From an uncultured Candidatus Saccharibacteria bacterium (lineage in GTDB: Bacteria > Patescibacteriota > Doudnabacteria > UBA920): a DNA stretch of 64,000 bases. A program made the translations under genes and the position numbers. Under the pieces are notes generated by a model. That model was not told the origin of the DNA, ran no database searches, and was given only the letters and a program-made list of their open reading frames with translations. The stretch lies in contig CAZGEB010000002.1 of NCBI GenBank assembly GCA_964524915.1, positions 5,094 to 69,093 of the forward strand. The letters are read 5' to 3'. Shown here in pieces: positions 5,646-38,672 of this stretch. How positions within the stretch are numbered: position 1 is the stretch's first letter; every line of letters starts with the position of its first letter.

Positions 5646-6903
5646 TATCAAATTTCTAATTTCTAAAAAACACGCAGCGCTGGCGATAATTATGGCCACT
5701 TGCATCATTATCACAATGGTCGGCTTTTATTTATTTCAAAATAATAAATCTCCTCTCCCCACCTCCAATGCCTCAATAGACACCCTTGAAGATGCGTGGG
5801 CCGTAGCCGCACAAAATATTAAAGATACAAACCAAACAACTGAAGTGACCTTCTTGGCAGTTGGAGATATTTCCCTTTCTCGTAATATCGCCTACACTAT
5901 CCAAAAAAATGGCAACGACCCAGACTACCCGTTTCGTAACATCTCTGCACTCCTCAAATCCACTGATTTTAATTTTGGTAATCTAGAAACTCCTTTTTCA
6001 TCTAGCGATAGGTTTACCCCAAGCAATACTCTAGTATTTAATGCGCCAAAGCTTAATGTCAAAGGCTTGGTAGATAACAATTTTAAAATTCTCAACCTAG
6101 CCAACAACCACTCTTTTGACCAAGGCATGGACGGCATCCGTACTACACAAAAAGTTCTCAAGGAAAACGACATTCAGTTTATGGGCACAGGAGAAAGCCT
6201 GGATGAATCATGGCAGCCTGCAATCATAGAAAAAAATGGAATCAAAATTGGCTTTATCGGCGCATCCTATGCTTCTATAAATGATGGCGGAAAATCTACA
6301 AACAACTTCGTCTCACGTATAGAAGACATTTCCCATCTTCAACTCGCAATTCGTAATACTAAACTCGTAGCAGATTTTCTAGTAGTTACCATGCACGCAG
6401 GCACAGAATACACCACCAAACCAAATCAATCTCAAATAGATTTTGCGCATGCAGCAATTGATGCTGGTGCAGACATGGTCATTGGCGCTCATCCCCACTG
6501 GGTACAAGAAAAAGAAATATATTGCCCGAAATCAGTTTCCTCCCCTGTCCAAGGGGAGGCTAGGTGGGGTGAAAATTCTGCGCAACTCGCAAATTCAAAT
6601 GAATTCACAGAACCTAAACAAACAAATTGTAAACCCATTTATTATTCTCTAGGTAATTTTATTTTTGATCAATCTTGGAGTAAGGAAACCACAGAGGGTT
6701 TGGCTTTAAAGATTACATTAAACAAAACTGTTTCTTCTCTATCCCCTAGTGAGGGGAAAGATGGCTTGCCCGCCAGTGAAAGGCTCTGGCAGGCAGGAGA
6801 TGGGTTGTATGAAAATAATTCACCCACCACTATAAAATCCTTAGAAGAAATTCCTATAAAAATAGAAAACAACTGCTGCGCAGTTGTCTCAAAAAAAGAA
6901 TAA
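5638..6903 (+). CDS. CapA/PgsA-family metallophosphatase (poly-gamma-glutamate capsule synthesis-like)
   Basis: LAVGDISLSR..NFGNLETP..VVTMHAGTEYT..GADMVIGAHPHWVQ. The C-terminal part carries two GC-rich palindromic in-frame insertions. Confidence 0.75.
   Translation: MSNIKFLISKKHAALAIIMATCIIITMVGFYLFQNNKSPLPTSNASIDTLEDAWAVAAQNIKDTNQTTEVTFLAVGDISLSRNIAYTIQKNGNDPDYPFRNISALLKSTDFNFGNLETPFSSSDRFTPSNTLVFNAPKLNVKGLVDNNFKILNLANNHSFDQGMDGIRTTQKVLKENDIQFMGTGESLDESWQPAIIEKNGIKIGFIGASYASINDGGKSTNNFVSRIEDISHLQLAIRNTKLVADFLVVTMHAGTEYTTKPNQSQIDFAHAAIDAGADMVIGAHPHWVQEKEIYCPKSVSSPVQGEARWGENSAQLANSNEFTEPKQTNCKPIYYSLGNFIFDQSWSKETTEGLALKITLNKTVSSLSPSEGKDGLPASERLWQAGDGLYENNSPTTIKSLEEIPIKIENNCCAVVSKKE
6529..6580. 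repeat. GC-rich palindromic element (cctcccc-tgtccaa-ggggagg) in frame inside capA-like CDS
   Basis: Inverted repeat CCTCCCC/GGGGAGG in a 38% GC gene; encodes SSPVQGEARWGE. Confidence 0.5.
6741..6765. repeat. GC-rich palindromic element (tcccct-agtg-agggga) in frame inside capA-like CDS
   Basis: Perfect 6-bp inverted repeat with a 4-nt loop; encodes LSPSEGK. Confidence 0.45.
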
Positions 6904-7300: not shown

Positions 7301-9685
7301 ATGTCAAAACCTTTAATAATAGTAGAGTCCCCCACCAAAGCCCGAACCATCACCAAGTTCCTCGGGAGTGAATATATAGTGGAGGCAAGTGTGGGCCATA
7401 TCAGGGACCTCCCTAAATCCAAGATTTCTATTGATGTTAAAAATGATTTTACCCCCACCTACGTCATTCCACCTGCCAAAGCAGAAATAGTAGAAAAACT
7501 GAAACACCTAGCAGCAAAAGCCTCAGAAATCATTCTAGCAACCGACGCCGACCGAGAAGGTGAGGCTATTTCTTGGCATCTGATCCAAGCCCTAGGCTTG
7601 GAAAATAAGAAAACAGAAAAAAGAAATCAGAAAAATCAATTGGAGGCTGCCTCTGCTTCCGAGCTCACGCCTCACGCCTCTCCGCCAGCCGGCGGACTCA
7701 CGCCTATCAAGAGAATTGTTTTTCACGAAATTACCAAATCAGCCATTGAAGAAGCCTTAAAACACCCAAGAGACTTAGATCAAAATCTGGTAGATGCCCA
7801 GCAAGCTCGCCGCGTACTAGATAGACTAGTAGGCTATGAGCTCTCACCTTTCCTCTGGAGAAAAGTACGCTACGGACTTTCTGCTGGCAGAGTCCAAAGT
7901 GTAGCTGTGAGGCTCGTCGTGGAAAGAGAAAGAGAAATTCAAAAATTTAAAACAGATGAATACTGGAGTATCAAAGCCCTAGCAGAAAACCAAGCAAAAT
8001 TCACTTTCGAAACCAGACTACACAAAGTAGCCGAAAAAAACCTGGGCAAATTAGATATTACAAATCAAGCTCAAGCAGAAAAGTATGTAGGAGAAATGCA
8101 AAAAGCTTCTTGGGTGGTTTCTAGCGTGCAGAAAAAAGAAGCCAAGCGCAACCCTTCAGCACCTTTTACCACCTCCACCCTCCAGCAAGAAGCAGCAAGA
8201 AAACTTGGATTTAGCGCCAAACAAACCATGGCAGTTGCCCAAGGTTTGTACGAGCAAGGTTTTATCACCTACATGCGTACCGATAGTTTGAACTTGTCAG
8301 ATTCAGCGATTAAACAAGCCAAAGAGATTATAACTGGACAATTTGGAAACCAGTATACACTAGAGACGCCAAGAATATTTACAAACAAATCCAAAGGCGC
8401 ACAAGAAGCTCACGAAGCCATTCGTCCCACAGACCTATCTAAACTTCCACAACATTTAAGTGGGGACCTGGACAGAAATCAATCCAGACTCTACGACCTT
8501 ATTTGGAAAAGAACCATCGCCTGTCAAATGCAACAAGCTTTGGTAGAACAAACTACAGTAGATATAGAAGGTAAATGTACCACAGAAAATAATCCTTACA
8601 CCTTGAGAGCCAACGGACAGATCATTAAATTTGATGGATTTATCAGAGTTTATACAGAAGGCAAAGACGCAGAAGATGACACAGAAGAAGACGGTGAAAA
8701 AACTTTGCCGGACTTAAAAGAAGGAGAGACTATCAGCGTCACCGACATTACTCCCGAGCAACACTTCACCGAACCACCTCCTAGATATACTGATGCCACA
8801 CTTATCAAAGCCCTAGAATCAGCTGGCATAGGCAGACCTTCTACCTACGCCCCCACCCTCACTACCATTCAAGAGAGAGAGTATGTAGACAAAGAAGACA
8901 AAAAATATAAACCAACTGAAGTTGGAATAATCGTTAATGATCTTTTGGTAGAACATTTTCCAGAAATTGTGGACATCAATTTCACCGCTAGGATAGAAGA
9001 AGAATTTGATGAAATCGCCGAAGGCAAAACTAAGTGGGTACCGGTAATTCGGGAATTTTACGAACCCTTTAAAAAACATTTGATAGAAAAAGAAGCTGCA
9101 GTAGAAAAGCAAGTAGAAGAATCAAATGTCCCCTGCAGCCACTGCGGCAAGATGATGATCATCAAATTTGGTAGAGCAGGCAGATTCCTCGCCTGCCCAG
9201 ATCCTGAAAGCAAAATTACTCAGCCACTACCAGAGGAAGCCGCCAAGATCAAAGAGCTAGAAGAAAAAACCAAAGACGAGAGATGCCCTATTTGCGACAA
9301 GCCTATGGAGGTCAAGCGTGGCAGGTTTGGATTTTTCCTTGGCTGCACTGACTACCCCAAGTGTAAAGGCATATCAAAAATTTGGAATAAGACTGGTTTC
9401 AAGTGTCCGAACTGTTTAGAAAATGCAGACAGAAAAAATAAACCGGGCGACATCGTAGAGAAAAAAGGGCGTGGTCGCGCCAAACCTTTTTGGGCATGCA
9501 CTAGGTGGCCTGATTGTGAATTTATTATAAACGTCCATCCAGAGTCAGAGACCCAGCTCAAAGAGCTGTTTGAAGCTTGGAAAAAAGCTCCCAAAAAAGA
9601 CAAGGATGAAAAGAAGTCTCGCTATACAAAAAAGCCTACCACCAAGAAAACTGCAGCCAAAACAAAAAAGGATTCGGGCAAGTAA
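7301..9685 (+). CDS. topA: DNA topoisomerase I with C-terminal Zn-ribbon repeats and a Lys-rich tail
   Basis: Toprim N-terminus LIIVESPTKARTI, active-site GFITYMRTDS, and three C4 zinc ribbons (CSHCGKMM..C, CPICDKPM..C, CPNC..C). Confidence 0.95.
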   Translation: MSKPLIIVESPTKARTITKFLGSEYIVEASVGHIRDLPKSKISIDVKNDFTPTYVIPPAKAEIVEKLKHLAAKASEIILATDADREGEAISWHLIQALGLENKKTEKRNQKNQLEAASASELTPHASPPAGGLTPIKRIVFHEITKSAIEEALKHPRDLDQNLVDAQQARRVLDRLVGYELSPFLWRKVRYGLSAGRVQSVAVRLVVEREREIQKFKTDEYWSIKALAENQAKFTFETRLHKVAEKNLGKLDITNQAQAEKYVGEMQKASWVVSSVQKKEAKRNPSAPFTTSTLQQEAARKLGFSAKQTMAVAQGLYEQGFITYMRTDSLNLSDSAIKQAKEIITGQFGNQYTLETPRIFTNKSKGAQEAHEAIRPTDLSKLPQHLSGDLDRNQSRLYDLIWKRTIACQMQQALVEQTTVDIEGKCTTENNPYTLRANGQIIKFDGFIRVYTEGKDAEDDTEEDGEKTLPDLKEGETISVTDITPEQHFTEPPPRYTDATLIKALESAGIGRPSTYAPTLTTIQEREYVDKEDKKYKPTEVGIIVNDLLVEHFPEIVDINFTARIEEEFDEIAEGKTKWVPVIREFYEPFKKHLIEKEAAVEKQVEESNVPCSHCGKMMIIKFGRAGRFLACPDPESKITQPLPEEAAKIKELEEKTKDERCPICDKPMEVKRGRFGFFLGCTDYPKCKGISKIWNKTGFKCPNCLENADRKNKPGDIVEKKGRGRAKPFWACTRWPDCEFIINVHPESETQLKELFEAWKKAPKKDKDEKKSRYTKKPTTKKTAAKTKKDSGK
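7661..7705. repeat. in-frame insertion: hairpin CTCCGCCAGCCGGCGGACTC flanked by TCACGCC direct repeats
   Basis: tcacgcc tcacgcc [tctccgccagccggcggac] tcacgcc. The 20-bp core is identical to 38424-38443 in the pnp leader. Encodes ELTPHASPPAGGLTPIK. Confidence 0.6.
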
Positions 9686-11447: not shown

Positions 11448-12377
11448 ATGCAAAATTTCGTACCCCAATCCACCGGCGATTTCGAGCTTTTAGATTCAGG
11501 CATGTCCATGCGCCTAGAGAAATGGGGGCAGTATACTTTGTCACGCCCAGACCCACAAGCCATTTGGCAACCTTCTCTTCCCAAAGAAGAATGGGAAAAA
11601 GCTGATGCGGTTTTTGACGATGGCTGGAAAATAAAAAATAAAATCCAGCAACCTTGGGTGTATAAGTACAACCTCTCTGCCCCAATCAAAGCATCGGGGC
11701 ATCTCCCCTCACAAGGAGAGAGTATAAGGTTGTTCGCAAGGCTCACGGCTTTTAAACACACTGGTATTTTTCCAGAGCAAGCCTACAACTGGCAATGGCT
11801 TTCCCACAAGCTAAAAGCTATAAGCTATAAGCTAAAAATCCTCAACCTCTTCGCTTACACAGGTGCTACCACTTGTCTACTAGCTAGCCTTGGCTGCCAG
11901 GTAACTCATGTTGATGCATCAAAACCCTCTATTGAGTGGGCGAAAAATAATGCGAAGCTGAATAATCTCCCAGAAGATAGTATCCGCTGGATTTTAGATG
12001 ATGCGGCCAAGTTTGTAAAAAGAGAAATTAGGCGTGGGGCCGAGTACGACGGCATCATCATGGACCCGCCTGCTTTTGGGCACTCCCCTAGTGGTAAAAC
12101 TTGGAAATTTTCAGAAAATTTACCAGAACTGCTTTCCGATTGCATAAAGCTCTTGAGCCCACATGCACAATTTTTGATAATCAATGCCTACGCCACCAAC
12201 ACTTCTAGCATTGCGCTACAAAATTTATTAGAAGACAGCTTGCCCCCTCCCCTTCTGAGGGGAGGGTTGGGGAGGGGTGGTATTGAATCAGGCGAACTTT
12301 TACTTGAGCAAAAAAATAAACGCCTGCTATCCACAGGCATTCTCGCTAGATGGTCAAAACACACTAATCACAACTAA
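11448..12377 (+). CDS. class I SAM-dependent methyltransferase (RlmI/RlmK-like rRNA methyltransferase fold)
   Basis: FAYTGATTCLLASLGCQVTHVDASK...DGIIMDPPAFG. Carries an in-frame heptamer repeat (11806-11835) and a GC-rich palindromic insertion (12241-12290). Confidence 0.7.
   Translation: MQNFVPQSTGDFELLDSGMSMRLEKWGQYTLSRPDPQAIWQPSLPKEEWEKADAVFDDGWKIKNKIQQPWVYKYNLSAPIKASGHLPSQGESIRLFARLTAFKHTGIFPEQAYNWQWLSHKLKAISYKLKILNLFAYTGATTCLLASLGCQVTHVDASKPSIEWAKNNAKLNNLPEDSIRWILDDAAKFVKREIRRGAEYDGIIMDPPAFGHSPSGKTWKFSENLPELLSDCIKLLSPHAQFLIINAYATNTSSIALQNLLEDSLPPPLLRGGLGRGGIESGELLLEQKNKRLLSTGILARWSKHTNHN
12241..12290. repeat. GC-rich palindromic element (ccccctcccc-ttctg-aggggaggg-tt-ggggagggg) in frame in methyltransferase CDS
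   Basis: Reverse orientation of the CCCTCCCCTCAGAAGGGGAGGGG core. Encodes PPPLLRGGLGRGG. Confidence 0.6.
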
Positions 12378-19725: not shown

Positions 19726-19736
19726 AGCTCAACCTT

Positions 19737-19762
19737 ATAGGTTATACCTGATACCTTATAGA
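19737..19762. repeat. left inverted repeat flanking the four-helix-bundle gene
   Basis: taggttatacctgataccttatagaa. Its reverse complement ttctataaggtatcaggtataaccta matches the right flank acctataaggtataaggtatccc. Confidence 0.5.
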
Positions 19763-19766
19763 ATAA

Positions 19767-20132
19767 CTAGATACGCAATTTGGCAATCATCACATTTAAC
19801 ATTTTCATAACCTCTGTTAAAACAAAACCCACTTGTTCTTTTTGTGGCTGGTTAATAAAATTCAACATCAAGGCAACTTCTAATTGTGTTTCGAGTTCTG
19901 CCCCAGAAGCAAAAGCAACTGACAAAAACTGGCAATAATCTTTTTTGGTACTTCTGTACCTGCCCTCGGCGATATTAGACGGGATCGAAACAGAACACCT
20001 TCGCATTTGAGACACCAGCCCAAACTTTTCATTTTCAGGAAACCTTGAAGTTACTTGATAAACCAGCTTCACCACCTGCATGGATTTTTGCCAAACAATT
20101 AAATCTTTATAGCTTTGTTTTTTGTCTTCCAT
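19767..20132 (-). CDS. four-helix-bundle protein (TIGR02436 / 23S rRNA intervening-sequence protein family)
   Basis: DLIVWQKS..FPENEKFGLVSQMRRCSVSIPSNIAEG..FL..A.GS..E..TQL. Confidence 0.8.
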   Translation of the reverse strand: MEDKKQSYKDLIVWQKSMQVVKLVYQVTSRFPENEKFGLVSQMRRCSVSIPSNIAEGRYRSTKKDYCQFLSVAFASGAELETQLEVALMLNFINQPQKEQVGFVLTEVMKMLNVMIAKLRI

Positions 20133-20154
20133 AAATTATTCCGCCGCATGCCTT

Positions 20155-20180
20155 TACCTATAAGGTATAAGGTATCCCGC
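20155..20180. repeat. right inverted repeat flanking the four-helix-bundle gene ((GGTATAA)n-like)
   Basis: acctataaggtataaggtatcccgc, in inverted orientation relative to 19737-19762. Confidence 0.5.
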
Positions 20181-23176: not shown

Positions 23177-23222
23177 ATATTTTTCTCCTTGTTATTTAGA
23201 ATAATGAAGTAAGTATAAAGAA

Positions 23223-23606
23223 TTAAGAATAAAAACTTTTTGACTTTTTAATTAAACCATTAATTATTTTATGTAACTCCACTAATGTACTGCTTATATA
23301 ATTGTAATCCGTTTTAGTAATAAATCCTAAATCCCTAGAAATCATAAATTGATTTTGGACTTCGGTAACAGACCCCAAGCTGATCGCATAGAATCTCGCC
23401 TTGTCTGCATAAGTACTCCTACTAAACCCCTCCGCAATATTGGATGTTATGGAAACCGATGCCCTGCGCAACTGATTGGTCAAACCAAACATTTCGGCTT
23501 TTGGAAAAGAATTAGTTAAACGATAAACCTCCAAGACTAACTCATGACCTTTTTTCCAAGCAAGTAAATCAGTAAAATTATGAATCTTGGCTTTTTCTTC
23601 ATTCAT
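23223..23606 (-). CDS. four-helix-bundle protein (TIGR02436 family), second copy
   Basis: LLAWKKGHELVLEVYRLTNSFPKAEMFGLTNQLRRASVSITSNIAEG. Confidence 0.8.
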   Translation of the reverse strand: MNEEKAKIHNFTDLLAWKKGHELVLEVYRLTNSFPKAEMFGLTNQLRRASVSITSNIAEGFSRSTYADKARFYAISLGSVTEVQNQFMISRDLGFITKTDYNYISSTLVELHKIINGLIKKSKSFYS

Positions 23607-23643
23607 AGGGCTTTACTCTTTACTCTTACTTCTTTAATCTTGC

Positions 23644-24177
23644 TTATTTCTTCTTCCCAATCCCTACCCCACTTGGTCTGACTACTTTGCCGCCGATCAT
23701 GTAGCCAGGCACATATTCCTCCACCACCACACCATCTTCCCCGCCCTCTATTTCTTTAATAGCTTCATGGAAATTTGGATCAAACTTTTTTCCCAAAGCT
23801 TCAACTCTTTGCACTCCCAACTCTTCCAGTGCCTTATCCAACTGCTTGATTAATCCTGCAATACCATTTTTCCAGTCACTGTATTTCTCCACAAATTCTT
23901 TATTCTTTATTCTTAATTCTTCATTCTCCTCTGGCATATGCCTGAGCGCTTGCCCTAAAGAATCCAAGGAAGGCAAAAGTTTTGCCACTGCCACTTCCCT
24001 TGCAAAGTCCACCAACTCTTTACTTTTCTTTTCTTGCCCTGCTTGAAAATTTAGTAGGTCCGCCTGCGCCCGCTTCCAACCATTTAGATTTGCTTCGGCT
24101 TCCGACTTGGCCTCATCCAGTTGTTGGATTAAAGTCTTTTCTTCTTGATCGTTAGTTGTGTAATTATCATCGCTCAT
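23644..24177 (-). CDS. grpE: nucleotide exchange factor GrpE
   Basis: GWKRAQADLLNFQ..and the C-terminal beta-domain GYMIGGKVVRP. Contains an in-frame (TTATTCT)4 repeat at 23891-23918. Confidence 0.9.
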   Translation of the reverse strand: MSDDNYTTNDQEEKTLIQQLDEAKSEAEANLNGWKRAQADLLNFQAGQEKKSKELVDFAREVAVAKLLPSLDSLGQALRHMPEENEELRIKNKEFVEKYSDWKNGIAGLIKQLDKALEELGVQRVEALGKKFDPNFHEAIKEIEGGEDGVVVEEYVPGYMIGGKVVRPSGVGIGKKK

Positions 24178-27639: not shown

Positions 27640-28536
27640 TTATAACGAATCTCGAATTTTCTTTAAGATTTTTACATCCTCTTTCACTCTATCATGATCA
27701 GTTTCCAAAATCAATGGAAAAGTAATGTCATTCTTACTCTTTGAGAGAAGACTGTCAAGAGCTTTCAAAAAGGCCATTATTCCAGCCTTTCCAAGCTTCC
27801 CTTGCCCTATATGTTCATGCCTATCTTTGTGACTACCTAGCTCCACTTTACTGTCATTTACGTGCGACATGCGTAGAAACTTCAGTCCAATAATTTTATC
27901 AAACTGTTTCAAAACTTCGAGCGCTGATTTTTCTGTACGCAAATCATAACCGCTACCAAAAGCATGCTGAGTATCAAAACAAATTCCCCCAAAACCTTTT
28001 TTGCCAACTAGCGGCTTCATCAAATCTCTAACTTCTTCAAAAGTATCGCCCAAGACAGCTCCCGCACCTGCAGAAATTTCTATAAGCAACTCTGTAGTGC
28101 CTTTGTAATTTTTCAAAACTTCCACCAAACCTTTTTGTGCTTGCGCAAATCCTTTTTCTTCATTGTCTTTTAAACTTCCCGGATGGAACATGACAAACTT
28201 TGCACCCAGCAATGTGCCACGCTCCAATTCATCTCGCACTATAGCAATAGAAGATTTATAAGTAGCGGGCTTTGGTGAACCAAAGTTGATGTAATAAGGC
28301 GCATGAATAACAAAGCACGCCCCCTCTCCTTTTGAGGAGAGGGATGGGGAGAGGTTGTATTTCCCAGTCTCCCCTCTAAACTGTTCCAAAACTTCTTTGG
28401 TCAATTTCGGAGCTGGACCTCCCTGAGGTGAACGAGAAAATATTTGAAAAGTCTCGCAGCCCAAAGCCGCCGCCATTTTCGGCGCATTAAATACTCCTCC
28501 CGCAATACTCACATGACAACCTATTTGAAATTTCAT
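27640..28536 (-). CDS. nfo: endonuclease IV (AP endonuclease, Nfo)
   Basis: MKFQIGCHVSIAGG..HAPYYINFGSP..LIEISAGAG..FDTQHAFGSGYDL..HVNDSK. Carries an in-frame GC-rich palindromic insertion (28321-28385) encoding GETGKYNLSPSLSSKGEGA. Confidence 0.85.
   Translation of the reverse strand: MKFQIGCHVSIAGGVFNAPKMAAALGCETFQIFSRSPQGGPAPKLTKEVLEQFRGETGKYNLSPSLSSKGEGACFVIHAPYYINFGSPKPATYKSSIAIVRDELERGTLLGAKFVMFHPGSLKDNEEKGFAQAQKGLVEVLKNYKGTTELLIEISAGAGAVLGDTFEEVRDLMKPLVGKKGFGGICFDTQHAFGSGYDLRTEKSALEVLKQFDKIIGLKFLRMSHVNDSKVELGSHKDRHEHIGQGKLGKAGIMAFLKALDSLLSKSKNDITFPLILETDHDRVKEDVKILKKIRDSL
28321..28385. repeat. GC-rich palindromic element (CCCCTCTCC-TTTTG-AGGAGAGGG-AT-GGGGAGAGG...CTCCCCTCT) inside nfo
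   Basis: Inverted G/C arms in an AT-rich gene; the reading frame is maintained. Confidence 0.6.
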
Positions 28537-28988
28537 AATTTTTCCTTTACCCCCTCCCCTTTCTGCGAGTTCGCCGAAGCTTTAGCGTAGGAGAATGAGG
28601 GGAGGGTTGGGGAGGGGTTGGTTACTACTTGTTTAATAACCTCCAGCACTCCTTCTAAATTTTTATCAATCTCATTATTCCAAAAATGTAAAACAATGTA
28701 GCCTTGCGATTCCAAAAATTCTTGTTTCTGATTATCTGTAAATTTACCACTGGCCTCATTATGTTGACTACCATCCAACTCAATAGCCAACTTTTTGGCT
28801 CGACAAGAAAAATCAACAATCACAGCACCGATTTGTACTTGGCGCTTAAATTGTAAGCCTAAAAAACGATGGGCTCGCAGACGTGACCACAGCTTCGCCT
28901 CCCAAGGAGTTTGAGACTTACGAAGTTGTCGGGAATAAGACAAATAAGGCTCATGAACAAGTCGTTTTGGCATACTTTCATTATACAA
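28533..28988 (-). CDS. DUF559 endonuclease-domain protein (Vsr/restriction-endonuclease-like fold)
   Basis: LRK..T..E..LW..LR...GLQFKRQVQIGAVIVDFSC...LAIELDGSQH...VLHFWNNEI. Its C-terminal ~25 aa are encoded by the GC-rich element at 28549-28625. Confidence 0.6.
   Translation of the reverse strand: MYNESMPKRLVHEPYLSYSRQLRKSQTPWEAKLWSRLRAHRFLGLQFKRQVQIGAVIVDFSCRAKKLAIELDGSQHNEASGKFTDNQKQEFLESQGYIVLHFWNNEIDKNLEGVLEVIKQVVTNPSPTLPSFSYAKASANSQKGEGVKEKL
28549..28625. repeat. GC-rich palindromic element with long loop (CCCCTCCCC...GAGGGGAGGG-TT-GGGGAGGGG)
   Basis: The loop contains cgccgaagctttagcgtagg, which recurs between the two tRNA-Lys genes (10770-10790). Confidence 0.6.
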
Positions 28989-29040
28989 CCCCTCCCTTGA
29001 TCCCTCCCCTCAGAAGGGGAGGGGTTTAAGACACAAACTG
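28981..29040. repeat. GC-rich palindromic element (CCCCTCCC-TTGAT-CCCTCCCC-TCAGAA-GGGGAGGGG) between the DUF559 and M16 peptidase genes
   Basis: Canonical copy of the family, at the 5' end of the DUF559 gene and over the C-terminal codons and stop of the M16 peptidase gene (29026). Confidence 0.6.
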
Positions 29041-31212: not shown

Positions 31213-31286
31213 TTGTCATCCCGAGCGAGGTTTTACGAGCCGAGGGATCCCTCCATTCCGCAAAGCCTCCAGTCGGGATGACACAA
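31213..31286. mobile_element. MITE-like element with TTGTCATCCCGAG / TCGGGATGACACAA terminal inverted repeats
   Basis: 11-12-bp terminal inverted repeats about 48 bp apart, immediately 3' of the GIY-YIG nuclease gene. Same terminal inverted-repeat family as 38361-38462 and 40540-40644. Confidence 0.5.
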
Positions 31287-32316: not shown

Positions 32317-33741
32317 CTATATTTTCTCTCCTAAGTAAGCTGGTAAATCTTTTACAGAAATGCGAACCTGTTCTTGTGTGTCACGGTCGCGTACGGTTAC
32401 AGTATCATCCTCCAAAGTTTGGAAATCTACGGTAATGCAAAAAGGTGTACCAATTTCATCTTGTGAATAATACCTCTTGCCTACATTGCCACGGTCATCC
32501 CAAGCTATGGGTAGGAGTTGCGAGTTGCGAGTTGCGAGTTGCGAGTAAATACTGCGGGCTTTTTCTACCAGCTCGGGTTTGTTTTTTAGCAGTGGAAACA
32601 CTGCACATTTATAAGGAGCTAATTTTGGTGGTAGCGCAAGCCACACTCGTTTTACTTGCGCGTTGTCGTCTAGATCTTCTCTGTAAAACTCAAAAAGAGT
32701 AGATAAAAACAAACGGTTAAAACCCAAAGAAGACTCCACTATATATGGATTAAACCTCTCGCCTGTTGCCTCGTCAAAATAAGTCAAATCTTGACCGGAA
32801 AATTTGGAGTGTTGATCCAGGTCGTAGCTGCCACGATTGTGCAGCCCTTCTATTTCCTTAAATCCCATTTCGGAAAACTCGTACTCTATATCCCATGCAT
32901 CCCTAGCGTAAAAAGCTCTCTCATCCTCTTCGTGTTGACGCCACCTGACACGCTCTTTACTAAATCCCAGAAAATCCACATAAAAATTTTTACGATATTC
33001 TTTCCACTCTTCATAATGTTTGTCTGCGTCCACGGGCGCACAAAAATACTGCACGTCCATTTGTTCAAATTCCCGAGTTCTAAAAAGAAAATTCTTTACT
33101 GTAATTTCATTACGAAAAGCCTTGCCTATTTGGGCAATACCAAAAGGGAGTTTCCTACGAGTAGTATTTTGCACCGACCTCCAGTCCACATAAATATTTT
33201 GGCAACTTTCCCCCTTCAAATAAACAAGGTTACTTGCTTCTTCTGTAGGGCCTAAAAATGTCTTTACTAATAAATTAAACTTTTTGGCAGCGGATAATGC
33301 ATTACCATCTGGACTTTTCAGTCCTTTTGACTGGATGAGGTCACTAGCTTGTTCCGCGGTCAAGGACCCTGCATTTTCCATTAAACCTGCCTCTTCTATC
33401 AAATGATCTGCTCTGTATCTTTTGTGCGTCACCAGATCTTCTACAAGTAAATCAGCAAAACCACCTACGTGACCACTGGCCTCCCAAACTCTTGGGTGCA
33501 TAAAAATCGCACCCTCAATTTCCACCACATCTTCCCGCTTTTGCGTATTCCAATATCTCCAAGCATGTTCTAAATTTTTCTTGAGCAAAAACCCCAAAGG
33601 ACCAAAGTCGTAGGTAGCAGCAAAACCCCCATAAATTTCTGAAGAGGGAAATACAAACCCACGACGCTTACAGAGCGCCACTATTTTTTCCATCTTTCCC
33701 TCCGAAGCCTTGGCAGAGGATAGTAAATTTTCTTGTTGCAT
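32317..33741 (-). CDS. glyQS: glycine--tRNA ligase (dimeric GlyQS type)
   Basis: MEKIVALCKRRGFVFPSSEIYGGFAATYDFGPLG and class II motifs. Carries an in-frame (GAGTTGC)4 repeat at 32515-32545. Confidence 0.9.
   Translation of the reverse strand: MQQENLLSSAKASEGKMEKIVALCKRRGFVFPSSEIYGGFAATYDFGPLGFLLKKNLEHAWRYWNTQKREDVVEIEGAIFMHPRVWEASGHVGGFADLLVEDLVTHKRYRADHLIEEAGLMENAGSLTAEQASDLIQSKGLKSPDGNALSAAKKFNLLVKTFLGPTEEASNLVYLKGESCQNIYVDWRSVQNTTRRKLPFGIAQIGKAFRNEITVKNFLFRTREFEQMDVQYFCAPVDADKHYEEWKEYRKNFYVDFLGFSKERVRWRQHEEDERAFYARDAWDIEYEFSEMGFKEIEGLHNRGSYDLDQHSKFSGQDLTYFDEATGERFNPYIVESSLGFNRLFLSTLFEFYREDLDDNAQVKRVWLALPPKLAPYKCAVFPLLKNKPELVEKARSIYSQLATRNSQLLPIAWDDRGNVGKRYYSQDEIGTPFCITVDFQTLEDDTVTVRDRDTQEQVRISVKDLPAYLGEKI
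32515..32545. repeat. heptanucleotide tandem repeat (AGTTGCG/GAGTTGC)x4 in frame inside glyQS
   Basis: gagttgcgagttgcgagttgcgagttgcgag encodes SQLATRNSQL on the minus strand. Identical tract in tgt (34660-34691). Confidence 0.9.
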
Positions 33742-34384: not shown

Positions 34385-35556
34385 GACTTAATTTCCCTAA
34401 AATCTTCCACCATCTTATCAAAATAATCAAACTCTATTGCTAGCCTGATTTTGCCCATGAGGTTTAGATAAAATCTGAGGTTGTGCATGGTGGCAAGGCG
34501 TAAAGCTAAAGGCTCTCCTGTGGCAAAAAGATGCCTGAGATAAGCTCTGGTGTGATTTAAACAAGCATAGCAATTACAATTTGGATCAATGGGCGTAAAA
34601 TCCTCCGCATACTTCTGTACACGAATATCTATGGTCTCGTAGCCCTCCCCGATTTCTAGTTGCGAGTTGCGAGTTGCGAGTTGCGAGGAAATATATAGTC
34701 TGCCGTGACGCGCTTCTCTACTTGGAATCACACAGTCAAAAGTATCACACCCTCTAGCAACTGCTTGCACTATATCAAAGGGGGTACCCACACCAAGCAA
34801 ATGTTTTGGTGAATTTTCTGGTAAATGTGGGACAGCAGACTCTACCGCGATCATCATTTCATCGTGACCTTCCCCTACTGCCACTCCACCGATAGCAAAA
34901 CCCTCAAACCCCAAAGCCACCATGTCTTCAGCTGATTTCTTTCTTAAATCTGGGAAAGATGCGCCTTGTACAATCCCCCAAAGTTTTTGTCCGCGGTTTA
35001 CCGGGTCACCATCCAAAACTATTCTTTGATGCTCCTTTACAGCCCTCTCTGCCCATCTTTTTGTCAGCTCTATAGACTGTTTTGATCTTTCATACTCAAA
35101 AGGAAAGCCTGGAAAATCATCTAGAATCAAAGCCACATCTGATCCTAAATTTGCTTGAATCTGCACAGACTTTTCTGGAGACAACATTTCTTCTCTACCG
35201 TCTAGGTCAAATTGAAAAAACACTCCGGCTTCTGTCACTTTTCGCATTTTTGCCAAAGAAAAAACTTGAAAGCCGCCACTGTCAGTAAAAATCGGCCCTT
35301 GCCAATTCATAAACTGGTGGAGTCCTCCGGCTTTATAAACAAGTCCATCCCCAGGGCGTTGCCACAAATGATAGGTGTTGGCAAGGATCATTTCTGCCCC
35401 CCAAAATTTCAGCTCTTCACTCGTGACACTTTTTACTGTGCCGCGCGTGCCAATAGGCAAAAAGATCGGCGTATGAACCTGACCGTGATGCGTATTTATA
35501 ATTCCAAGCCTTGCTTTTGACTTAGAATCTTTTTTTAAAATTTCAAAATATGGCAT
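34381..35556 (-). CDS. tgt: queuine tRNA-ribosyltransferase
   Basis: LPIGTRGTVKSV..., zinc site CNCYACLNH. Carries an in-frame (AGTTGCG)4 repeat at 34660-34691. Confidence 0.9.
   Translation of the reverse strand: MPYFEILKKDSKSKARLGIINTHHGQVHTPIFLPIGTRGTVKSVTSEELKFWGAEMILANTYHLWQRPGDGLVYKAGGLHQFMNWQGPIFTDSGGFQVFSLAKMRKVTEAGVFFQFDLDGREEMLSPEKSVQIQANLGSDVALILDDFPGFPFEYERSKQSIELTKRWAERAVKEHQRIVLDGDPVNRGQKLWGIVQGASFPDLRKKSAEDMVALGFEGFAIGGVAVGEGHDEMMIAVESAVPHLPENSPKHLLGVGTPFDIVQAVARGCDTFDCVIPSREARHGRLYISSQLATRNSQLEIGEGYETIDIRVQKYAEDFTPIDPNCNCYACLNHTRAYLRHLFATGEPLALRLATMHNLRFYLNLMGKIRLAIEFDYFDKMVEDFREIKS
34660..34691. repeat. heptanucleotide tandem repeat (AGTTGCG)x4 in frame inside tgt
   Basis: agttgcgagttgcgagttgcgagttgcgag encodes SQLATRNSQL, the same peptide as in glyQS. 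Confidence 0.9.
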
Positions 35557-36117: not shown

Positions 36118-38340
36118 TTAATTATCTCTTTGTCCGTTTCCACCATGTGGTTTCCAATCAAAACCTCTTTGACCGCGGTCGTGAGGAGGGCCTTGGCGTT
36201 CTGGTGCTGGCTTTGCAAAAGGTCTGTGAGTTAAATTGATACGGCCTTGACTATCTATTTCTTGTACTTTCACTTTCAAAGTGTCGCCAATATTTACTAC
36301 ATCCTCTACACGATTTACTCTGTAATTTGCAAGCTCAGAAATATGTACCATACCATCTTGACCTGGAATCAATTCCACAAAAGCACCAAAGTTCATTATG
36401 CGTACTACTTTACCTTCAAATTCTTCACCTACTTGAATTTGGCGAGTGAGATCTTTGATCCACTTCACAGCTTTTGCATTTCCATCTTCATTGACTGAGC
36501 AAACCATTACAAGACCTGAGTCTTCTATGTCTATCTTCACACCAGTTTCAGCAATGATTTGGTTAATCACTTTGCCTCCGGGACCTATCACATCGCGAAT
36601 CTTGTCTACTGGTATATAGAAGCTGACAATGCGTGGCGCATAAGGAGACATTTCAGGGCGAGGCGCTGGCAAGGCTTCTTTCATTTTTTGAATAATGTAA
36701 AGTCTACCAGGCTTTGCTTGCTCCAGAGCTTTTGCAAGTATTTCTACTGTAAGTCCTTTGACTTTGATATCTAGCTGCAAAGCCGACACGCCTTCTTCTG
36801 AGCCTGTGACCTTGAAATCCATGTGACCATTAAAGTCTTCTATACCAGCGATATCAGTCAAAACTTTGTAATTTGAAGGATTACTTTCATCCATTACCAG
36901 ACCCATCGCCACACCACCAATAACTTTTGAAATAGGCACACCAGCGTCCATTAGCGCCAAAGAAGACCCACAAGTACTTGCCATGGAAGTGGAACCATTA
37001 CTGGCTATAGCTTCACTCACCAATCTCATGGTATAAGGGAAATCTTTTTGAGCAGGCAAAACCCCAGACGCATCCAAAGCTTTTTCAGCCAAAGCCCCGT
37101 GTCCAATTTCACGACGGCCAGGACCCCTTAGAGGTGACACTTCACCAACTGAGTAACCAGGCATGTTGTAGTGATGAATATAGCGCTTGTTTGTGCCCTC
37201 AGCTGGATCCTCTATACCATCTAGCAGCTGCTCATCGCCTTTGCTACCCAAGGTCACAACTGTCAAAACCTGAGTTTCACCGCGAGTAAATAAAGCTGAC
37301 CCATGAGTACGAGGCAAGATCCCAACTTCGCAGGAAATTTTGCGAGTCTCGTCTAGTCTTCTACCGTCTACTCTACGATCATTTTCTAATATTTGCTTTT
37401 GCTGATACTTTTTTAATATATAATCTGCGCAAAAAGTCACCTCTTTGGCAATTTTTTCTTGCTTGATAATTTCAGGTTTATCCGCAAACTCAACTGAAAT
37501 GATTTCTTCAATTTCTTTTAAGACAGCATTTATTCTCTCTTCTCTTTCAGCTTTTTCTTTCACATACACAGCAGCTTCAATTTTTTCTTCTGTCAAAAGC
37601 TCTTTTGTCCTGGCCATTATACTTTCATTTGGCAAAACAAAAGCAGCGGCAGCTTTTTCTTTGCCAATTTCGGTTCGCCACTGATTCTGCATCTCCACTA
37701 ATTCACCCAAAAACTTTTGAGCAAATTTTACACCCTCTACAATATCCACTTCACTCACCAATTCAGCACCCATCTCCACCATCAAGATGTGCTCTCCGGT
37801 ACCAGAGACCACTAAATCCATAGAAGATTTTTCTCGCTGTTCATGAGTTGGATTGACTACATATTGACCATTAATTTTTCCAACCCTCACAGCTGCCACA
37901 GGACCATCAAAAGGAATGTCAGAAATAGTCAAAGCAGTGGAAGCTGCTACCACAGCCAGCATATCTGGATCATTCTGCATGTCTACTGACAACACTGTAA
38001 CTACTACCTGCACATCATTGCGCATGCCGTAAGGAAAAAGTGGACGAAGTGTGCGATCGATCACACGCCCCGACAAAATAGCGTCATCGGTTGCCCGACC
38101 TTCACGCTTGACCCATCTACTACCCTTGATTTTGCCAGCAGCGTAAAGACGCTCTTCGTAATCCACCAAAAGTGGAAAATAATCTAAATCCCGAGGCTTG
38201 TCTGTCATTACACAAGTCGCCAAAACTACTGTATCTCCCAAACGAGCCAAAACTGCACTATTGGCCTGTAAAGCCATGCGTCCAGTTTCAAAACTCATTT
38301 TTTCTGTACCAATAATTCTTTCTATCGTTTGCACTGCCAT
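36118..38340 (-). CDS. pnp: polyribonucleotide nucleotidyltransferase (PNPase)
   Basis: Two RNase PH domains plus KH and S1 domains, with a Gly/Arg-rich tail. Start set at MAVQTIERIIG (38340). The 76 codons upstream in the ORF track lie over MITE-like repeats and are unlikely to be coding. Confidence 0.93.
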   Translation of the reverse strand: MAVQTIERIIGTEKMSFETGRMALQANSAVLARLGDTVVLATCVMTDKPRDLDYFPLLVDYEERLYAAGKIKGSRWVKREGRATDDAILSGRVIDRTLRPLFPYGMRNDVQVVVTVLSVDMQNDPDMLAVVAASTALTISDIPFDGPVAAVRVGKINGQYVVNPTHEQREKSSMDLVVSGTGEHILMVEMGAELVSEVDIVEGVKFAQKFLGELVEMQNQWRTEIGKEKAAAAFVLPNESIMARTKELLTEEKIEAAVYVKEKAEREERINAVLKEIEEIISVEFADKPEIIKQEKIAKEVTFCADYILKKYQQKQILENDRRVDGRRLDETRKISCEVGILPRTHGSALFTRGETQVLTVVTLGSKGDEQLLDGIEDPAEGTNKRYIHHYNMPGYSVGEVSPLRGPGRREIGHGALAEKALDASGVLPAQKDFPYTMRLVSEAIASNGSTSMASTCGSSLALMDAGVPISKVIGGVAMGLVMDESNPSNYKVLTDIAGIEDFNGHMDFKVTGSEEGVSALQLDIKVKGLTVEILAKALEQAKPGRLYIIQKMKEALPAPRPEMSPYAPRIVSFYIPVDKIRDVIGPGGKVINQIIAETGVKIDIEDSGLVMVCSVNEDGNAKAVKWIKDLTRQIQVGEEFEGKVVRIMNFGAFVELIPGQDGMVHISELANYRVNRVEDVVNIGDTLKVKVQEIDSQGRINLTHRPFAKPAPERQGPPHDRGQRGFDWKPHGGNGQRDN

Positions 38341-38360
38341 ATTTTTACCTTTCTTATGGT

Positions 38361-38462
38361 TTGTCATCCCAGAATTTTCTGCTTTGAGAAAATATCTGGG
38401 ACCCAGATTGGATTCCGGATCGCACTCGCCTCCGCCAGCCGGCGGACTCGTTTGTCCGGAAT
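38361..38462. mobile_element. MITE-like element (TTGTCATCCCAG...CCGGAATGACAT) in the pnp leader, containing the CTCCGCCAGCCGGCGGACTC hairpin
   Basis: Terminal inverted repeats related to the 31213 and 40540 elements. Core 38424-38443 is identical to topA 7679-7698. Confidence 0.5.
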
Positions 38463-38502
38463 GACATACCCACATGCAGTGACTTGCAAGCTCACAAAGA
38501 CA

Positions 38503-38527
38503 TTGTCTTGTCATCCCCGAGTAGTCG
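38503..38527. repeat. collapsed MITE-like hairpin TTGTCATCCCCGAG-TAG-TCGGGGAT
   Basis: Same terminal motif with arms directly abutting. Confidence 0.45.
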
Positions 38528-38587
38528 GGGATCTTTTCTTGCTTAATGAAATATGAAAATTTCCACACTCATACTTCTTAAGTAGAG

Positions 38588-38612
38588 ATTCCCGTCTTCA
38601 CGGGAATGACAT
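38588..38612. repeat. collapsed MITE-like hairpin ATTCCCG-TCTTCA-CGGGAATGACAT
   Basis: Right terminal inverted repeat CGGGAATGACAT paired with a short left arm. Confidence 0.45.
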
Positions 38613-38672
38613 GCAATAAATCTTCGTACAGTCTGCAAACCACTACAGTTAATTAATTTTTAAATAAGCTTT

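What the first reader, a model, noticed from the sequence alone, without database searches (positions are those of the whole stretch)
7661..7705. The same 20-bp hairpin (CTCCGCCAGCCGGCGGACTC) is inside the topA ORF and in the pnp leader, and in topA it is bracketed by TCACGCC direct repeats
topA 7679-7698 equals 38424-38443. In topA the hairpin is flanked as tcacgcc-tcacgcc-[hairpin]-tcacgcc, resembling an insertion with a heptamer target duplication. The reading frame is preserved (ELTPHASPPAGGLTPIK). This links the intergenic MITE family to intragenic, in-frame insertion, the same behaviour as the GC-rich family.
Basis: seen in the sequence. Interest (0 to 1): 0.65.

Follow-up and report, generated by a model that had tools for sequence, protein, structure and literature searches.

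The report
Tiny GC palindrome pasted into genes
A 20-base GC-rich hairpin sits in a floppy surface loop of the topoisomerase I gene and in a repeat hairpin upstream of pnp, and the same 20 bases occur in frame in housekeeping genes of many unrelated uncultured bacteria, so it looks like an unusually small piece of selfish DNA, not a classical transposon.

Summary
CTCCGCCAGCCGGCGGACTC is exact at 7680-7699 (topA ORF) and 38430-38449 (90 nt upstream of pnp), with 0 matches expected by chance.

The window comes from a Patescibacteria (CPR) genome. In TopA the 20-mer is translated (SPPAGGL) inside a 33-residue expansion of a Toprim loop that is 2-3 residues long in solved TopAs. The segment is absent from all 60 orthologues examined, including one that is 95% identical.

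The "TCACGCC target duplication" is better read as units of a CTCANNN heptamer-array family that recurs in other genes of the window. At pnp the 20-mer sits at the apex of a TGTC-tagged REP hairpin (the "CGTC REP" class of Di Nocera 2013). Only the inner module is shared with topA.

The same 20-mer occurs in 47 further distinct contexts in public genomes and metagenomes. It lies in frame in gyrB, pheS, glyA, tpiA, fabD, alr and ftsW/rodA, or at the centre of other palindromes. A filled/empty series in Kaiserbacteria gyrB shows 6 nt replaced by 18 nt, with no target duplication.

Best reading: a 16-bp-core palindromic micro-repeat spread by patch replacement. Purifying selection keeps frame-preserving copies in tolerant loops. 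This is a new variant of a known kind (intragenic REP/RPE, cyanobacterial SDRs). The mechanism is inferred, not shown.

The parts
7680..7699 (+). Copy 1 of the 20-mer (16-bp near-palindromic core 7681-7696), inside topA, translated as (S)PPAGGL
7664..7703 (+). CTCACGC heptamer array (units at 7664, 7671 and 7697) interrupted by the hairpin. It reads CTCACGC CTCACGC CTC-[16-mer]-CTCACGC.
7601..7635 (+). A-rich period-7/14 tandem repeat (AGAAAAC / GAAAAAAGAAAACA) in the same loop-coding segment
   Evidence: absent from relative L001
7610..7708 (+). Codons 104-136 of TopA: a 33-residue expansion of a Toprim-domain surface loop
   Evidence: Corresponds to 2-3 residues in solved TopAs. Variable in length in 60 orthologues. 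pLDDT below 50 for residues 103-132 in the AF2 model.
7301..9685 (+). topA (DNA topoisomerase I, 794 aa)
38430..38449 (+). Copy 2 of the 20-mer, intergenic, at the apex of REP hairpin E2. It is antisense with respect to pnp transcription.
38409..38466 (-). E2: TGTC-tagged REP (stem ATTCCGGA/TCCGGAAT, tail CCA). Its normal 4-5 nt loop is replaced by 35 nt that contain the 20-mer.
   Evidence: family features from PMC3733652
38362..38405 (+). E1: imperfect TGTC-tagged REP with a nested AT-rich hairpin and a CCA tail
38509..38535 (+). E3: TGTC-tagged REP (ATCCCCGA-GTAG-TCGGGGAT)
38585..38611 (-). E4: TGTC-tagged REP (ATTCCCGT-GAAG-ACGGGAAT)
   Evidence: compensated differences in relative L063
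38341..38672 (-). pnp leader / intergenic region, highly structured
   Evidence: RNA MFE -127 kcal/mol against -80 +/- 5.6 in shuffles, z = -8.5
36118..38340 (-). pnp (PNPase, 740 aa counted from MAVQTIE)

Best explanation
The 20-mer is one copy of a very small GC-rich palindromic repeat module. Its core is TCCGCCAGCYGGCGGA, a 6-bp stem with a 4-nt loop. The module is dispersed in Patescibacteria and in several other uncultured lineages.

It has no demonstrated function and behaves as selfish or neutral DNA. It is copied into two kinds of place: the apex of existing palindromic repeats (here the TGTC-tagged REP in the pnp leader), and repeat-rich, structurally tolerant loop-coding segments of genes (here the Toprim loop of TopA, inside a CTCANNN heptamer array).

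Insertion works by replacing a few target nucleotides with the module, without target-site duplication. Most likely this is short templated copying from another copy, that is, a template switch or microhomology-primed patch repair at hairpin- or repeat-prone DNA. Selection then keeps only frame-preserving events that encode an innocuous peptide (SPPAGG).

Shown: the identity of the two copies, insertion relative to orthologues, translation frame, loop location, wide distribution, and replacement without TSD in gyrB. Inferred: the copying mechanism, neutrality, and the order of events in topA (three heptamer units, +21 nt, then the hairpin patch, +12 nt).
For: - Two exact copies in the window, 0 expected.
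- The TopA segment is absent from 60 orthologues. The 95%-identical relative L001 is 75 nt shorter in exactly this loop.
- The loop equals 2-3 residues in solved TopAs and is low-confidence in the AF2 model.
- The exact 20-mer occurs in 24 GTDB-genome loci and 36 metagenome loci, which with the two window copies give 49 distinct contexts. Fifteen of the genome loci have GC below 0.5, where under 0.3 hits would be expected even if the whole 596 Gb had 45% GC or less.
- It lies in frame in GyrB, PheS, GlyA, TpiA, FabD, Alr and FtsW/RodA-like ORFs. Each of the five compared with solved homologues (TpiA, PheS, GlyA, FabD, GyrB) carries the extra residues in a variable loop.
- Nine of 15 low-GC genic copies use the PPAGG frames (p = 0.03).
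- The gyrB series runs empty (L202), then 27-nt insert only (L201), then both (L025/L055). GAGAAT is replaced by AGTCCGCCGGCTGGCGGA, net +12, with no duplication and G/GAG microhomology at the junctions.
- Net sizes of +9, +12 and +18 nt in tpiA, pheS and glyA fit an 18-nt in-frame block replacing 9, 6 or 0 nt.
- A pseudo-tRNA-Lys in L048 has two such hairpins replacing 8 and 7 nt.
- The module often sits at the centre of larger palindromes, including TGTC REPs, in bacterial and viral contigs.
- Close relatives carry different cassettes at the same sites, in the pnp leader and in TGT.
- No transposase is encoded in the 64-kb window.
Against: - No filled/empty pair at near-identical sequence exists for topA itself. 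The closest relative has diverged in the loop, so the topA junctions are inferred.
- Within-genome template switching does not by itself explain why exactly the same 20 bases occur in different phyla. That needs horizontal transfer of donor copies or a sequence-specific factor.
- Public hits were retrieved with the exact 20-mer, so the apparent sharpness of its boundaries is imposed by the search.
- Some high-GC hits are probably chance.
- Taxon labels are those of MAG records.
- A trans-acting enzyme encoded outside the window cannot be excluded.
Confidence: 0.6

Rival explanations
1. Classical MITE-like transposition into topA with a 7-bp (TCACGCC) target-site duplication.
For: TCACGCC occurs on both sides of the hairpin. 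A 6-bp repeat (ACGCCT) abuts the 20-mer on both sides, and one other locus (L021, TTCTCT) shows the same pattern.
Against: The left repeat is itself tandemly duplicated and belongs to a CTCANNN period-7 array family present elsewhere in the window. Forty-seven of 49 contexts have no flanking direct repeat. The gyrB filled/empty pair shows replacement, not duplication. A 20-nt insert plus a 6- or 7-nt TSD is not a multiple of 3. No terminal inverted repeats beyond the 6-bp stem, no parent IS and no transposase were found (Pfam).
Confidence: 0.05
2. The hairpin is mobilised as single-stranded DNA by a trans-acting HUH/Y1 (RAYT or IS200/IS605-like) or other nuclease encoded elsewhere. Such enzymes insert without target duplication. 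The variable net length would come from later small indels selected to restore the frame.
For: REP hairpins are thought to move this way (PMC3116915; PMC3733652). There is no TSD. The core is sharply conserved across genomes. The module is associated with REP hairpins.
Against: No such gene is in the window. CGTC-type REPs have no known dedicated transposase. No conserved tag or cleavage motif flanks the 16-bp core. Target nucleotides are replaced, not kept, in gyrB and in the pseudo-tRNA.
Confidence: 0.22
3. The element is functional. It could be a 16-bp palindromic protein-binding site, or an RNA-level device. The topA mRNA and the pnp leader carry perfectly complementary 20-mers that could pair and be cut by RNase III.
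For: The core is a near-perfect 16-bp palindrome of the kind dimeric DNA-binding proteins recognise. The two window copies are antisense at the RNA level. The pnp leader is very highly structured.
Against: In other genomes the same sequence sits in unrelated genes and positions, in all six frames. Close relatives lack it at both sites. It matches no Rfam family. Each copy is locked in its own stable hairpin.
Confidence: 0.05
4. Chance, convergence or assembly artefact.
For: GC-rich 16- to 20-mers do recur by chance in high-GC genomes. The viral hits to the AGCC variant are almost all in contigs of 55-70% GC.
Against: Nothing is expected in this 41% GC window. The topA copy is identical in an independent JGI assembly, and the pnp copy in an independent Logan assembly. 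The insertions keep reading frames open and favour benign frames in essential genes from many projects and assemblers.
Confidence: 0.02

Closest known systems
CGTC-tagged REPs (Di Nocera, De Gregorio and Rocco 2013, PMC3733652). The class includes Rickettsia RPE-4/RPE-6 and Neisseria dRS3.
   Same: The outer hairpins of the pnp leader fit the description. They have a CGTC/TGTC tag, an 8-9 bp stem starting with AT, a 4-5 nt loop, a 3-nt tail that is often CCA, frequent inverted dimers, no linked transposase, and occasional intragenic copies in replication and repair genes.
   Different: The shared 20-mer itself has no tag, a 6-bp stem that starts with TC, and no CCA tail. It is a separate module nested in the REP loop. 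Patescibacteria are not named among the taxa quoted in the passages of the paper that I read (only extracts were read).
Rickettsia palindromic elements (RPE; Ogata et al. 2000, cited from my own knowledge and through PMC3733652)
   Same: Palindromic selfish DNA inserted in frame into protein-coding genes at surface-exposed, tolerant positions.
   Different: RPE-1, the type inserted in genes, is roughly 100-150 bp and confined to one genus (own knowledge). This module is 16-20 bp and is found with identical sequence in several phyla.
Small dispersed repeats (SDR) of Nostoc and other cyanobacteria (Elhai et al. 2008, Genome Res 18:1484). The reference is listed. The paper is not held, so its content is from memory.
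   Same: Very short elements (about 21-27 nt), often hairpin-forming, nested in other repeats and in heptameric tandem repeats, apparently mobile without classical transposon hallmarks.
   Different: Different phylum and unrelated sequence. Cross-phylum identity and recurrent in-frame insertion into housekeeping genes are, as far as I recall, not part of that description.
REPINs / RAYT system (Bertels and Rainey 2011, PMC3116915)
   Same: Short palindromic repeats that evolve as mobile units. Inverted doublets also occur here, at 31215-31282 and as the E3/E4 pair.
   Different: No GTAG tag and no RAYT gene in the window. The module is a single 16-bp palindrome.
Mobile GC clusters of yeast mitochondrial DNA (own knowledge)
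   Same: Small GC-rich palindromes invading an AT-richer genome, including in-frame insertion into a coding gene (var1).
   Different: Organellar and about 30-60 bp. Some classes have defined target duplications.

Membership tests
CGTC-tagged REP (tested on the 20-mer itself) | Terminal CGTC/TGTC tag | tested here: not met
   The 20-mer and its topA flanks carry no such tag. In reverse complement it starts GAGTC, but the TC is part of the stem.
CGTC-tagged REP (tested on the 20-mer itself) | 8-9 bp stem beginning with AT, 4-5 nt loop, 3-nt tail (CCA) | tested here: not met
   The stem is 6 bp and starts TC. The loop is 4 nt, which is the only feature that fits. The tail is CTC.
CGTC-tagged REP (tested on outer hairpin E2, 38409-38466) | Tag, 8-bp AT-initial stem, CCA tail | tested here: met
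   TGTC + ATTCCGGA...TCCGGAAT + CCA (definition)
CGTC-tagged REP (tested on outer hairpin E2) | Loop of 4-5 nt | tested here: not met
   The loop is 35 nt because the 20-mer and extra bases are nested in it. Neighbours E3 and E4 have 4-nt loops.
CGTC-tagged REP (window hairpins in general) | Stem maintained by compensatory change; no linked transposase | tested here: met
   100% paired, and 4 of 7 pairs carry double changes. This is partly circular, because the elements were picked by their perfect stems. No transposase is in the window.
MITE | Terminal inverted repeats matching a parent IS, size about 50-500 bp | tested here: not met
   The shared unit is 20 bp. No IS or transposase is in the window.
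MITE | Constant target-site duplication | tested here: not met
   Two of 49 contexts have flanking repeats. The gyrB filled/empty pair shows replacement.
GTAG REP / REPIN-RAYT | GTAG tag and an associated RAYT gene | tested here: not met
   No GTAG at either end. No Y1 transposase in the window. The rest of the genome was not available.
Rickettsia RPE-type intragenic palindromic insertion | In-frame insertion in a tolerant protein loop, absent from orthologues | tested here: met
Rickettsia RPE-type intragenic palindromic insertion | Sequence and length of the RPE families (about 100-150 bp) | tested here: not met
   The unit here is 16-20 bp.
Cyanobacterial SDR | Sequence membership in SDR1-8 | not testable with these tools
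   The paper and its sequences are not held.
Cyanobacterial SDR | Behaviour: under 30 nt, hairpin, nested in heptamer arrays and in other repeats, no TSD | tested here: met
   The comparison with the published description rests on memory.
Described RNA family (Rfam 15) | Match at the gathering threshold | tested here: not met
   Only tRNAs in the window. Only far sub-threshold generic hairpin hits in the pnp leader.

The most novel reading that the evidence does not exclude
The 16-bp palindrome TCCGCCAGCYGGCGGA would be the smallest known horizontally spreading mobile DNA. It would pass between phyla that share groundwater and sediment habitats (CPR, Elusimicrobia, Bacteroidota, their phages). 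It would copy itself by microhomology-templated patch replacement into hairpin apices and into loop-coding DNA of essential genes. Nuclease-resistant hairpin fragments taken up by the competence machinery might be the vehicle (dprA lies about 1.7 kb upstream of topA on the same strand, with one gene between). No dedicated transposase would be involved.
Probability: 0.2. Interest if true: 0.85.

Novelty: new variant of a known kind. Interest (0 to 1): 0.6.

Why it matters
If the reading is right, essential CPR genes (topA, gyrB, pheS, glyA, tpiA and others) are being remodelled by repeat modules only 16-20 bp long. That size is well below what is usually considered able to move.

The same module appears in unrelated phyla. 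This gives a tractable marker for an unknown copy mechanism and for DNA exchange among uncultured bacteria.

There are also practical consequences. Such inserts inflate loop lengths in CPR proteins. They generate spurious N-terminal extensions: the public PNPase call of 798 aa reads through the leader as TSPPAGGG. They can also mislead alignments and structure prediction.

Tried and rejected
- **Rfam.** Gathering threshold on the whole window and E-value mode on the pnp leaders of the window and of L063 gave no family.
- **Literature.** Searches by nucleotide strings, by peptide strings derived from the repeats, and by keywords found nothing that describes this sequence. The Elhai 2008 paper is not held.
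- **Viral contigs, exact 20-mer.** No hit.
- **Viral contigs, 16-mer cores.** Hits to the AGCC variant are mostly in GC-rich contigs and are treated as chance. Only the perfect-palindrome variant shows low-GC, palindrome-centred copies.
- **Transposase search.** Pfam scans of about 57 window ORFs found only a XerC/D-like integrase and no Y1/RAYT or IS protein.
- **Consistent TSD or flanking motif.** None was found around the 20-mer.
- **Fragment of a conserved RNA gene.** The idea is not supported, because every context differs. The only tRNA-linked case is a decayed tRNA-Lys copy.
- **Terminator function.** The topA and E2 copies lack a downstream T-run on the transcribed strand.
- **Source contig.** Retrieval through the 798-aa PNPase call failed.
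- **DnaJ hairpin.** The TCCGCCAAAGGCGGA hairpin in dnaJ (19397) and in gyrB of other genomes was set aside as ordinary Gly-rich coding sequence.
Full report
**1. Observation.** The 20-mer CTCCGCCAGCCGGCGGACTC is present exactly twice in the window, at 7680-7699 and 38430-38449, both on the + strand. No further copy exists with up to 3 mismatches, and none appears in 100 dinucleotide-preserving shuffles. Identity stops at the 20-mer, and the flanks are unrelated. As DNA it folds into a 6-bp stem (TCCGCC/GGCGGA) with a 4-nt loop, dG -6.9 kcal/mol. TCACGCC occurs at 7665, 7672 and 7698, and the third copy overlaps the last two bases of the 20-mer. The topA frame reads ...ASASELTPHASPPAGGLTPIKRIVF....

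**2. Setting.** The window has 41% GC. It encodes ordinary housekeeping genes, among them dprA, topA, hrcA-grpE-dnaK-dnaJ, tgt, a class II aaRS, rpsO-pnp, rpoD, dnaG and RNase J. The best named TopA and PNPase relatives are Candidatus Doudnabacteria or 'Patescibacteria group'. The same TopA occurs on a JGI contig (L002), and the same pnp leader on a Logan contig (L064). The sequence is therefore not peculiar to one assembly.

**3. The topA site.**
- In an alignment with 60 orthologues the segment between ...ISWHLIQALGL and KRIVFHEIT varies from about 7 to about 50 residues. None carries ASPPAGGL.
- Against solved TopAs, query residues 104-136 (33 aa) correspond to 2-3 residues (6ozw, 1mw8). 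This is a loop within the Toprim domain, not an inter-domain linker.
- An AlphaFold2 model of residues 1-340 gives pLDDT 87-93 for most of the Toprim core (one other short loop near residues 42-50 is lower) and below 50 for residues 103-132.
- The closest relative (P0001/L001, 95% identical, 769 aa) is 75 nt shorter in exactly this loop. It lacks both the A-rich period-7/14 repeat (7601-7635) and the hairpin block.
- By inspection, TCTGCT-GCGCACCCCCACAC-TATAAAACGA in L001 corresponds to TCTGCT-TCCGAGCTCACGCCTCACGCCTCTCCGCCAGCCGGCGGACTCACGCC-TATCAAGAGA in the window. The extra 75 nt divide into 42 nt in the A-rich part and 33 nt here.

**4. The 'target duplication'.**
- The window is full of period-7 arrays. 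Twenty-one of 69 TRF rows have period 7 and 8 have period 14.
- A family of CTC-N4 arrays (CTCACTC, CTCAAGT, CTCGCAA, CTCACGG and others) gives 10 matches to (CTCNNNN)3CTC, where none is expected. CTCACNC CTCACNC occurs in topA and four times in a ferric-reductase-like gene, where it encodes SLLTPHSSLL.
- The same (CTCGCAA)4 block, encoding SQLATRNSQL, sits in frame in tgt and in an aaRS gene.
- The topA segment reads CTCACGC CTCACGC CTC-[16-mer]-CTCACGC. This looks like a heptamer array in which the 4 variable bases of one unit have been replaced by the 16-bp core, net +12.
- The 33 extra nt then decompose into 21 (three heptamers) plus 12 (the hairpin patch), and the upstream 42 nt are six heptamer equivalents. 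Each step would be frame-preserving on its own. This decomposition is an inference.

**5. The pnp site.**
- pnp starts at MAVQTIE (ATG at 38340, minus strand). The public 798-aa gene call (P0121) reads through the leader and translates the hairpin as TSPPAGGG. I treat that extension as an artefact of gene calling (an inference), because the nucleotide sequence of this stretch differs strongly in the close relative L063.
- The 332-nt leader is extremely structured, z = -8.5. It contains four hairpins of the form (T)GTC-AT...stem-loop-stem...AT-C(C/T)N.
- These match the 'CGTC-tagged REP' class of Di Nocera et al. 2013. That class has a CGTC or TGTC tag, an 8-9 bp stem starting with AT, a 4-5 nt loop, a 3-nt tail that is often CCA, predominant inverted dimers, no dedicated transposase, and occasional intragenic copies (PMC3733652).
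- Nine such minimal hairpins from the window and other loci are 100% paired, with double changes in 4 of 7 pairs. This is partly circular, since I selected perfect stems.
- The 20-mer lies at the apex of one of them, E2: TGTC-ATTCCGGA-[35 nt]-TCCGGAAT-CCA. The whole element folds as one extended hairpin.
- In the close relative L063 (PNPase in the same 90% cluster, TGT about 95% identical overall and near-identical outside two insertion sites) the leader has REP hairpins at the same positions, with different, compensated stems. At the E2/E1 position it has an inverted pair of GTCATTGCGAG...GAAGCAATC elements and no 20-mer.
- Only the inner module, not the REP, is therefore shared with topA. 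Because pnp is on the minus strand, the two transcripts would carry complementary 20-mers, not identical ones.

**6. Distribution elsewhere.**
- The exact 20-mer occurs in 24 loci of the one-genome-per-species GTDB set and in 36 metagenome loci. It does not occur in IMG/VR.
- After removing duplicates there are 49 contexts, counting the two in the window.
- Fifteen of the genome loci have GC below 0.5. Fewer than 0.3 hits would be expected even if all 596 Gb had 45% GC or less. Some of the high-GC hits may be chance.
- Fourteen of the 24 genome records are CPR. The others include an Elusimicrobia MAG (384-kb contig), Bacteroidales (576-kb contig), Bacteroidota, KSB1, Bdellovibrionales and Synergistaceae.
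- Contexts fall into three groups. Some are inside long ORFs. Some are at the centre of TGTC REPs or other palindromes (L003, L005, L018, L023, L031, L032, L056). The rest are other intergenic sites.
- The genic cases include GyrB, PheS, GlyA, TpiA, FabD, Alr and an FtsW/RodA-like protein. Against solved homologues the extra residues fall in variable loops: TpiA +3 aa, PheS +4, GlyA +6, and FabD and GyrB in variable segments.
- Nine of 15 low-GC genic copies use the two frames that encode PPAGG (p = 0.03). That is what selection for an innocuous peptide would produce.
- Variants of the core occur in the same loci, notably the perfect palindrome TCCGCCAGCTGGCGGA. In viral contigs the perfect palindrome occurs in about 16 contigs of GC below 0.5, often at the centre of larger palindromes, including GTCATTGCGA...GAAGCAATC and CCCCT...AGGGG types.
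- In L048 a decayed copy of tRNA-Lys next to the intact gene has two such hairpins in place of 8 and 7 nt.

**7. A filled/empty series.** Kaiserbacteria GyrB gives three states at high nucleotide similarity.
- L202 (91% aa identity) reads GAC CTC CGC | AAA GTG GAG AAT GTA AAA.
- L201 (94%) has a 27-nt GC-rich insert after CGC but still reads ...GCG GAC AAT GTA AAA.
- L025 and L055 carry that insert and also read AAA GTG AGT CCG CCG GCT GGC GGA GTA AAA.
- GAGAAT (6 nt) has therefore been replaced by an 18-nt block, or equivalently GGAGAATG by the 20-mer. The net change is +12. There is no target duplication, and G/GAG identities sit at both junctions.
- The net sizes seen in tpiA, pheS and glyA (+9, +12, +18) fit the same 18-nt block replacing 9, 6 or 0 nt.
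- A second case of turnover is in tgt. The window and L063 are nearly identical except at two places: a C-terminal repeat insert in L063, and one internal site where the window has (CTCGCAA)4 and L063 has TGTC-type palindromes, both in frame.

**8. Interpretation.** The thing itself is a 16-bp-core GC palindrome, not a MITE and not a REP of the tagged classes. The evidence supports selfish or neutral DNA that is copied into hairpin apices and into repeat-rich, tolerant loop-coding DNA. It replaces a few target bases, and purifying selection filters for frame and peptide.

I favour templated patch copying, that is, a template switch or microhomology-primed repair at structure-prone DNA. The reasons are the lack of a TSD, the loss of target bases, the variable net length, the preference for palindrome centres and repeat arrays, and the cassette turnover at fixed sites.

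The main weakness is the cross-phylum identity of the sequence. That needs horizontal transfer of donor copies or a sequence-specific factor. A trans-acting ssDNA nuclease or transposase encoded outside the window is the main rival. A regulatory role (operator, or topA/pnp antisense pairing) is unlikely, given the scattered and polymorphic distribution.

**9. Relation to known systems and novelty.** Intragenic palindromic repeats are known: Rickettsia RPEs, and GTAG and CGTC REPs in replication and repair genes (PMC3733652). Very small hairpin repeats nested in heptamer arrays have been described in cyanobacteria (Elhai et al. 2008, which I cite from memory because the paper is not held).

Several things appear new here. 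The unit is only 16-20 bp. It nests inside CGTC-type REP loops. It recurs with identical sequence in housekeeping genes of several phyla. There is also direct evidence for replacement without duplication. I found no description of this sequence in the searchable literature or in Rfam. I rate it a new variant of a known kind.

**10. Caveats.** Exact-match retrieval fixes the apparent element boundaries. MAG taxonomy is taken from record titles. The topA junctions are inferred from a diverged relative. No whole-genome census of the source organism was possible.

Noticed in passing
window 19732-20175 and 23194-23649: Two PF05635 genes ('23S rRNA-intervening sequence protein', bAvd-like) lie inside the hrcA-grpE-dnaK-dnaJ cluster. 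Each is flanked by inverted period-7/14 tandem arrays: CCTTATA-type against AGGTATA, and AGAATAAAGAAGTA against TTACTTCTTTAATC. They look like IVS-type cassettes whose array arms could pair.
   Followed up: partly
window 34658-34687 (tgt) and 32515-32546 (class II aaRS); L063 about 6400-6560: The same (CTCGCAA)4 heptamer block, encoding SQLATRNSQL, is in frame in two housekeeping genes. At the tgt site the near-identical relative L063 carries TGTC-type palindromes instead, also in frame. This is an intragenic hot spot with cassette turnover.
   Followed up: partly
window 47191-47227 and 47471-47508: CTCACTC and CTCAAGT heptamer arrays lie inside a ferric-reductase-like ORF (46332-47684), translated as SLLTPHSSLL and KSPNLKSQVSS.
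   Followed up: partly
window 12244-12280, 28321-28371, 28596-28618, 29002-29024, 60259-60311, 11702-11721, 59582-59601: A second GC-rich palindromic family (CCCCTCCCC-TTCTGA-GGGGAGGG plus TGGGGAGGGG) lies partly inside ORFs: AP endonuclease, DUF559, class V aminotransferase and a methyltransferase. L063 has one at the C-terminus of TGT.
   Followed up: no
window 31215-31282: An inverted pair of TGTC-tagged REPs abuts at GGGATCCC. Locus L003 (Saccharibacteria) has a nearly identical pair in which the 20-mer takes the place of a short segment (about 9 nt...CGCAAAGC...) of one member.
   Followed up: partly
window 38476-38647 (minus strand): The 5' two-thirds of the pnp leader can form a roughly 170-nt imperfect hairpin. 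Its outer arms are 100% conserved in relative L063, while the apical REPs differ. This may be an RNase III-type autoregulatory stem like the one in E. coli rpsO-pnp.
   Followed up: no
window 36118-38568: The public gene call for PNPase (P0121, 798 aa) starts upstream of the likely ATG and translates the leader repeats. This is probably an annotation artefact caused by stop-free GC-rich repeats.
   Followed up: partly
L048 5540-5684: An intact tRNA-Lys(UUU) is followed by a partial duplicate in which two TCCGCCAGCYGGCGGA hairpins replace 8 and 7 nt.
   Followed up: partly
L201, L025 and L055 (Kaiserbacteria gyrB): A separate 27-nt GC-rich in-frame insert (C[T/G]CGCCCGTGGGGCTACGGCCGAGGGC, encoding ARGATAEG) is present in some close relatives and absent in others. 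Other relatives have a PVGASGTK insert about 20 residues downstream.
   Followed up: partly
whole window: GC skew is negative in every 2-kb bin but one, whatever the gene orientation. AT skew does follow gene strand.
   Followed up: no
window 28533-28988; L063 6828-7220: DUF559 / Vsr-like endonuclease genes are present in both the window and the relative. Their relevance to repeat dynamics is unknown.
   Followed up: no
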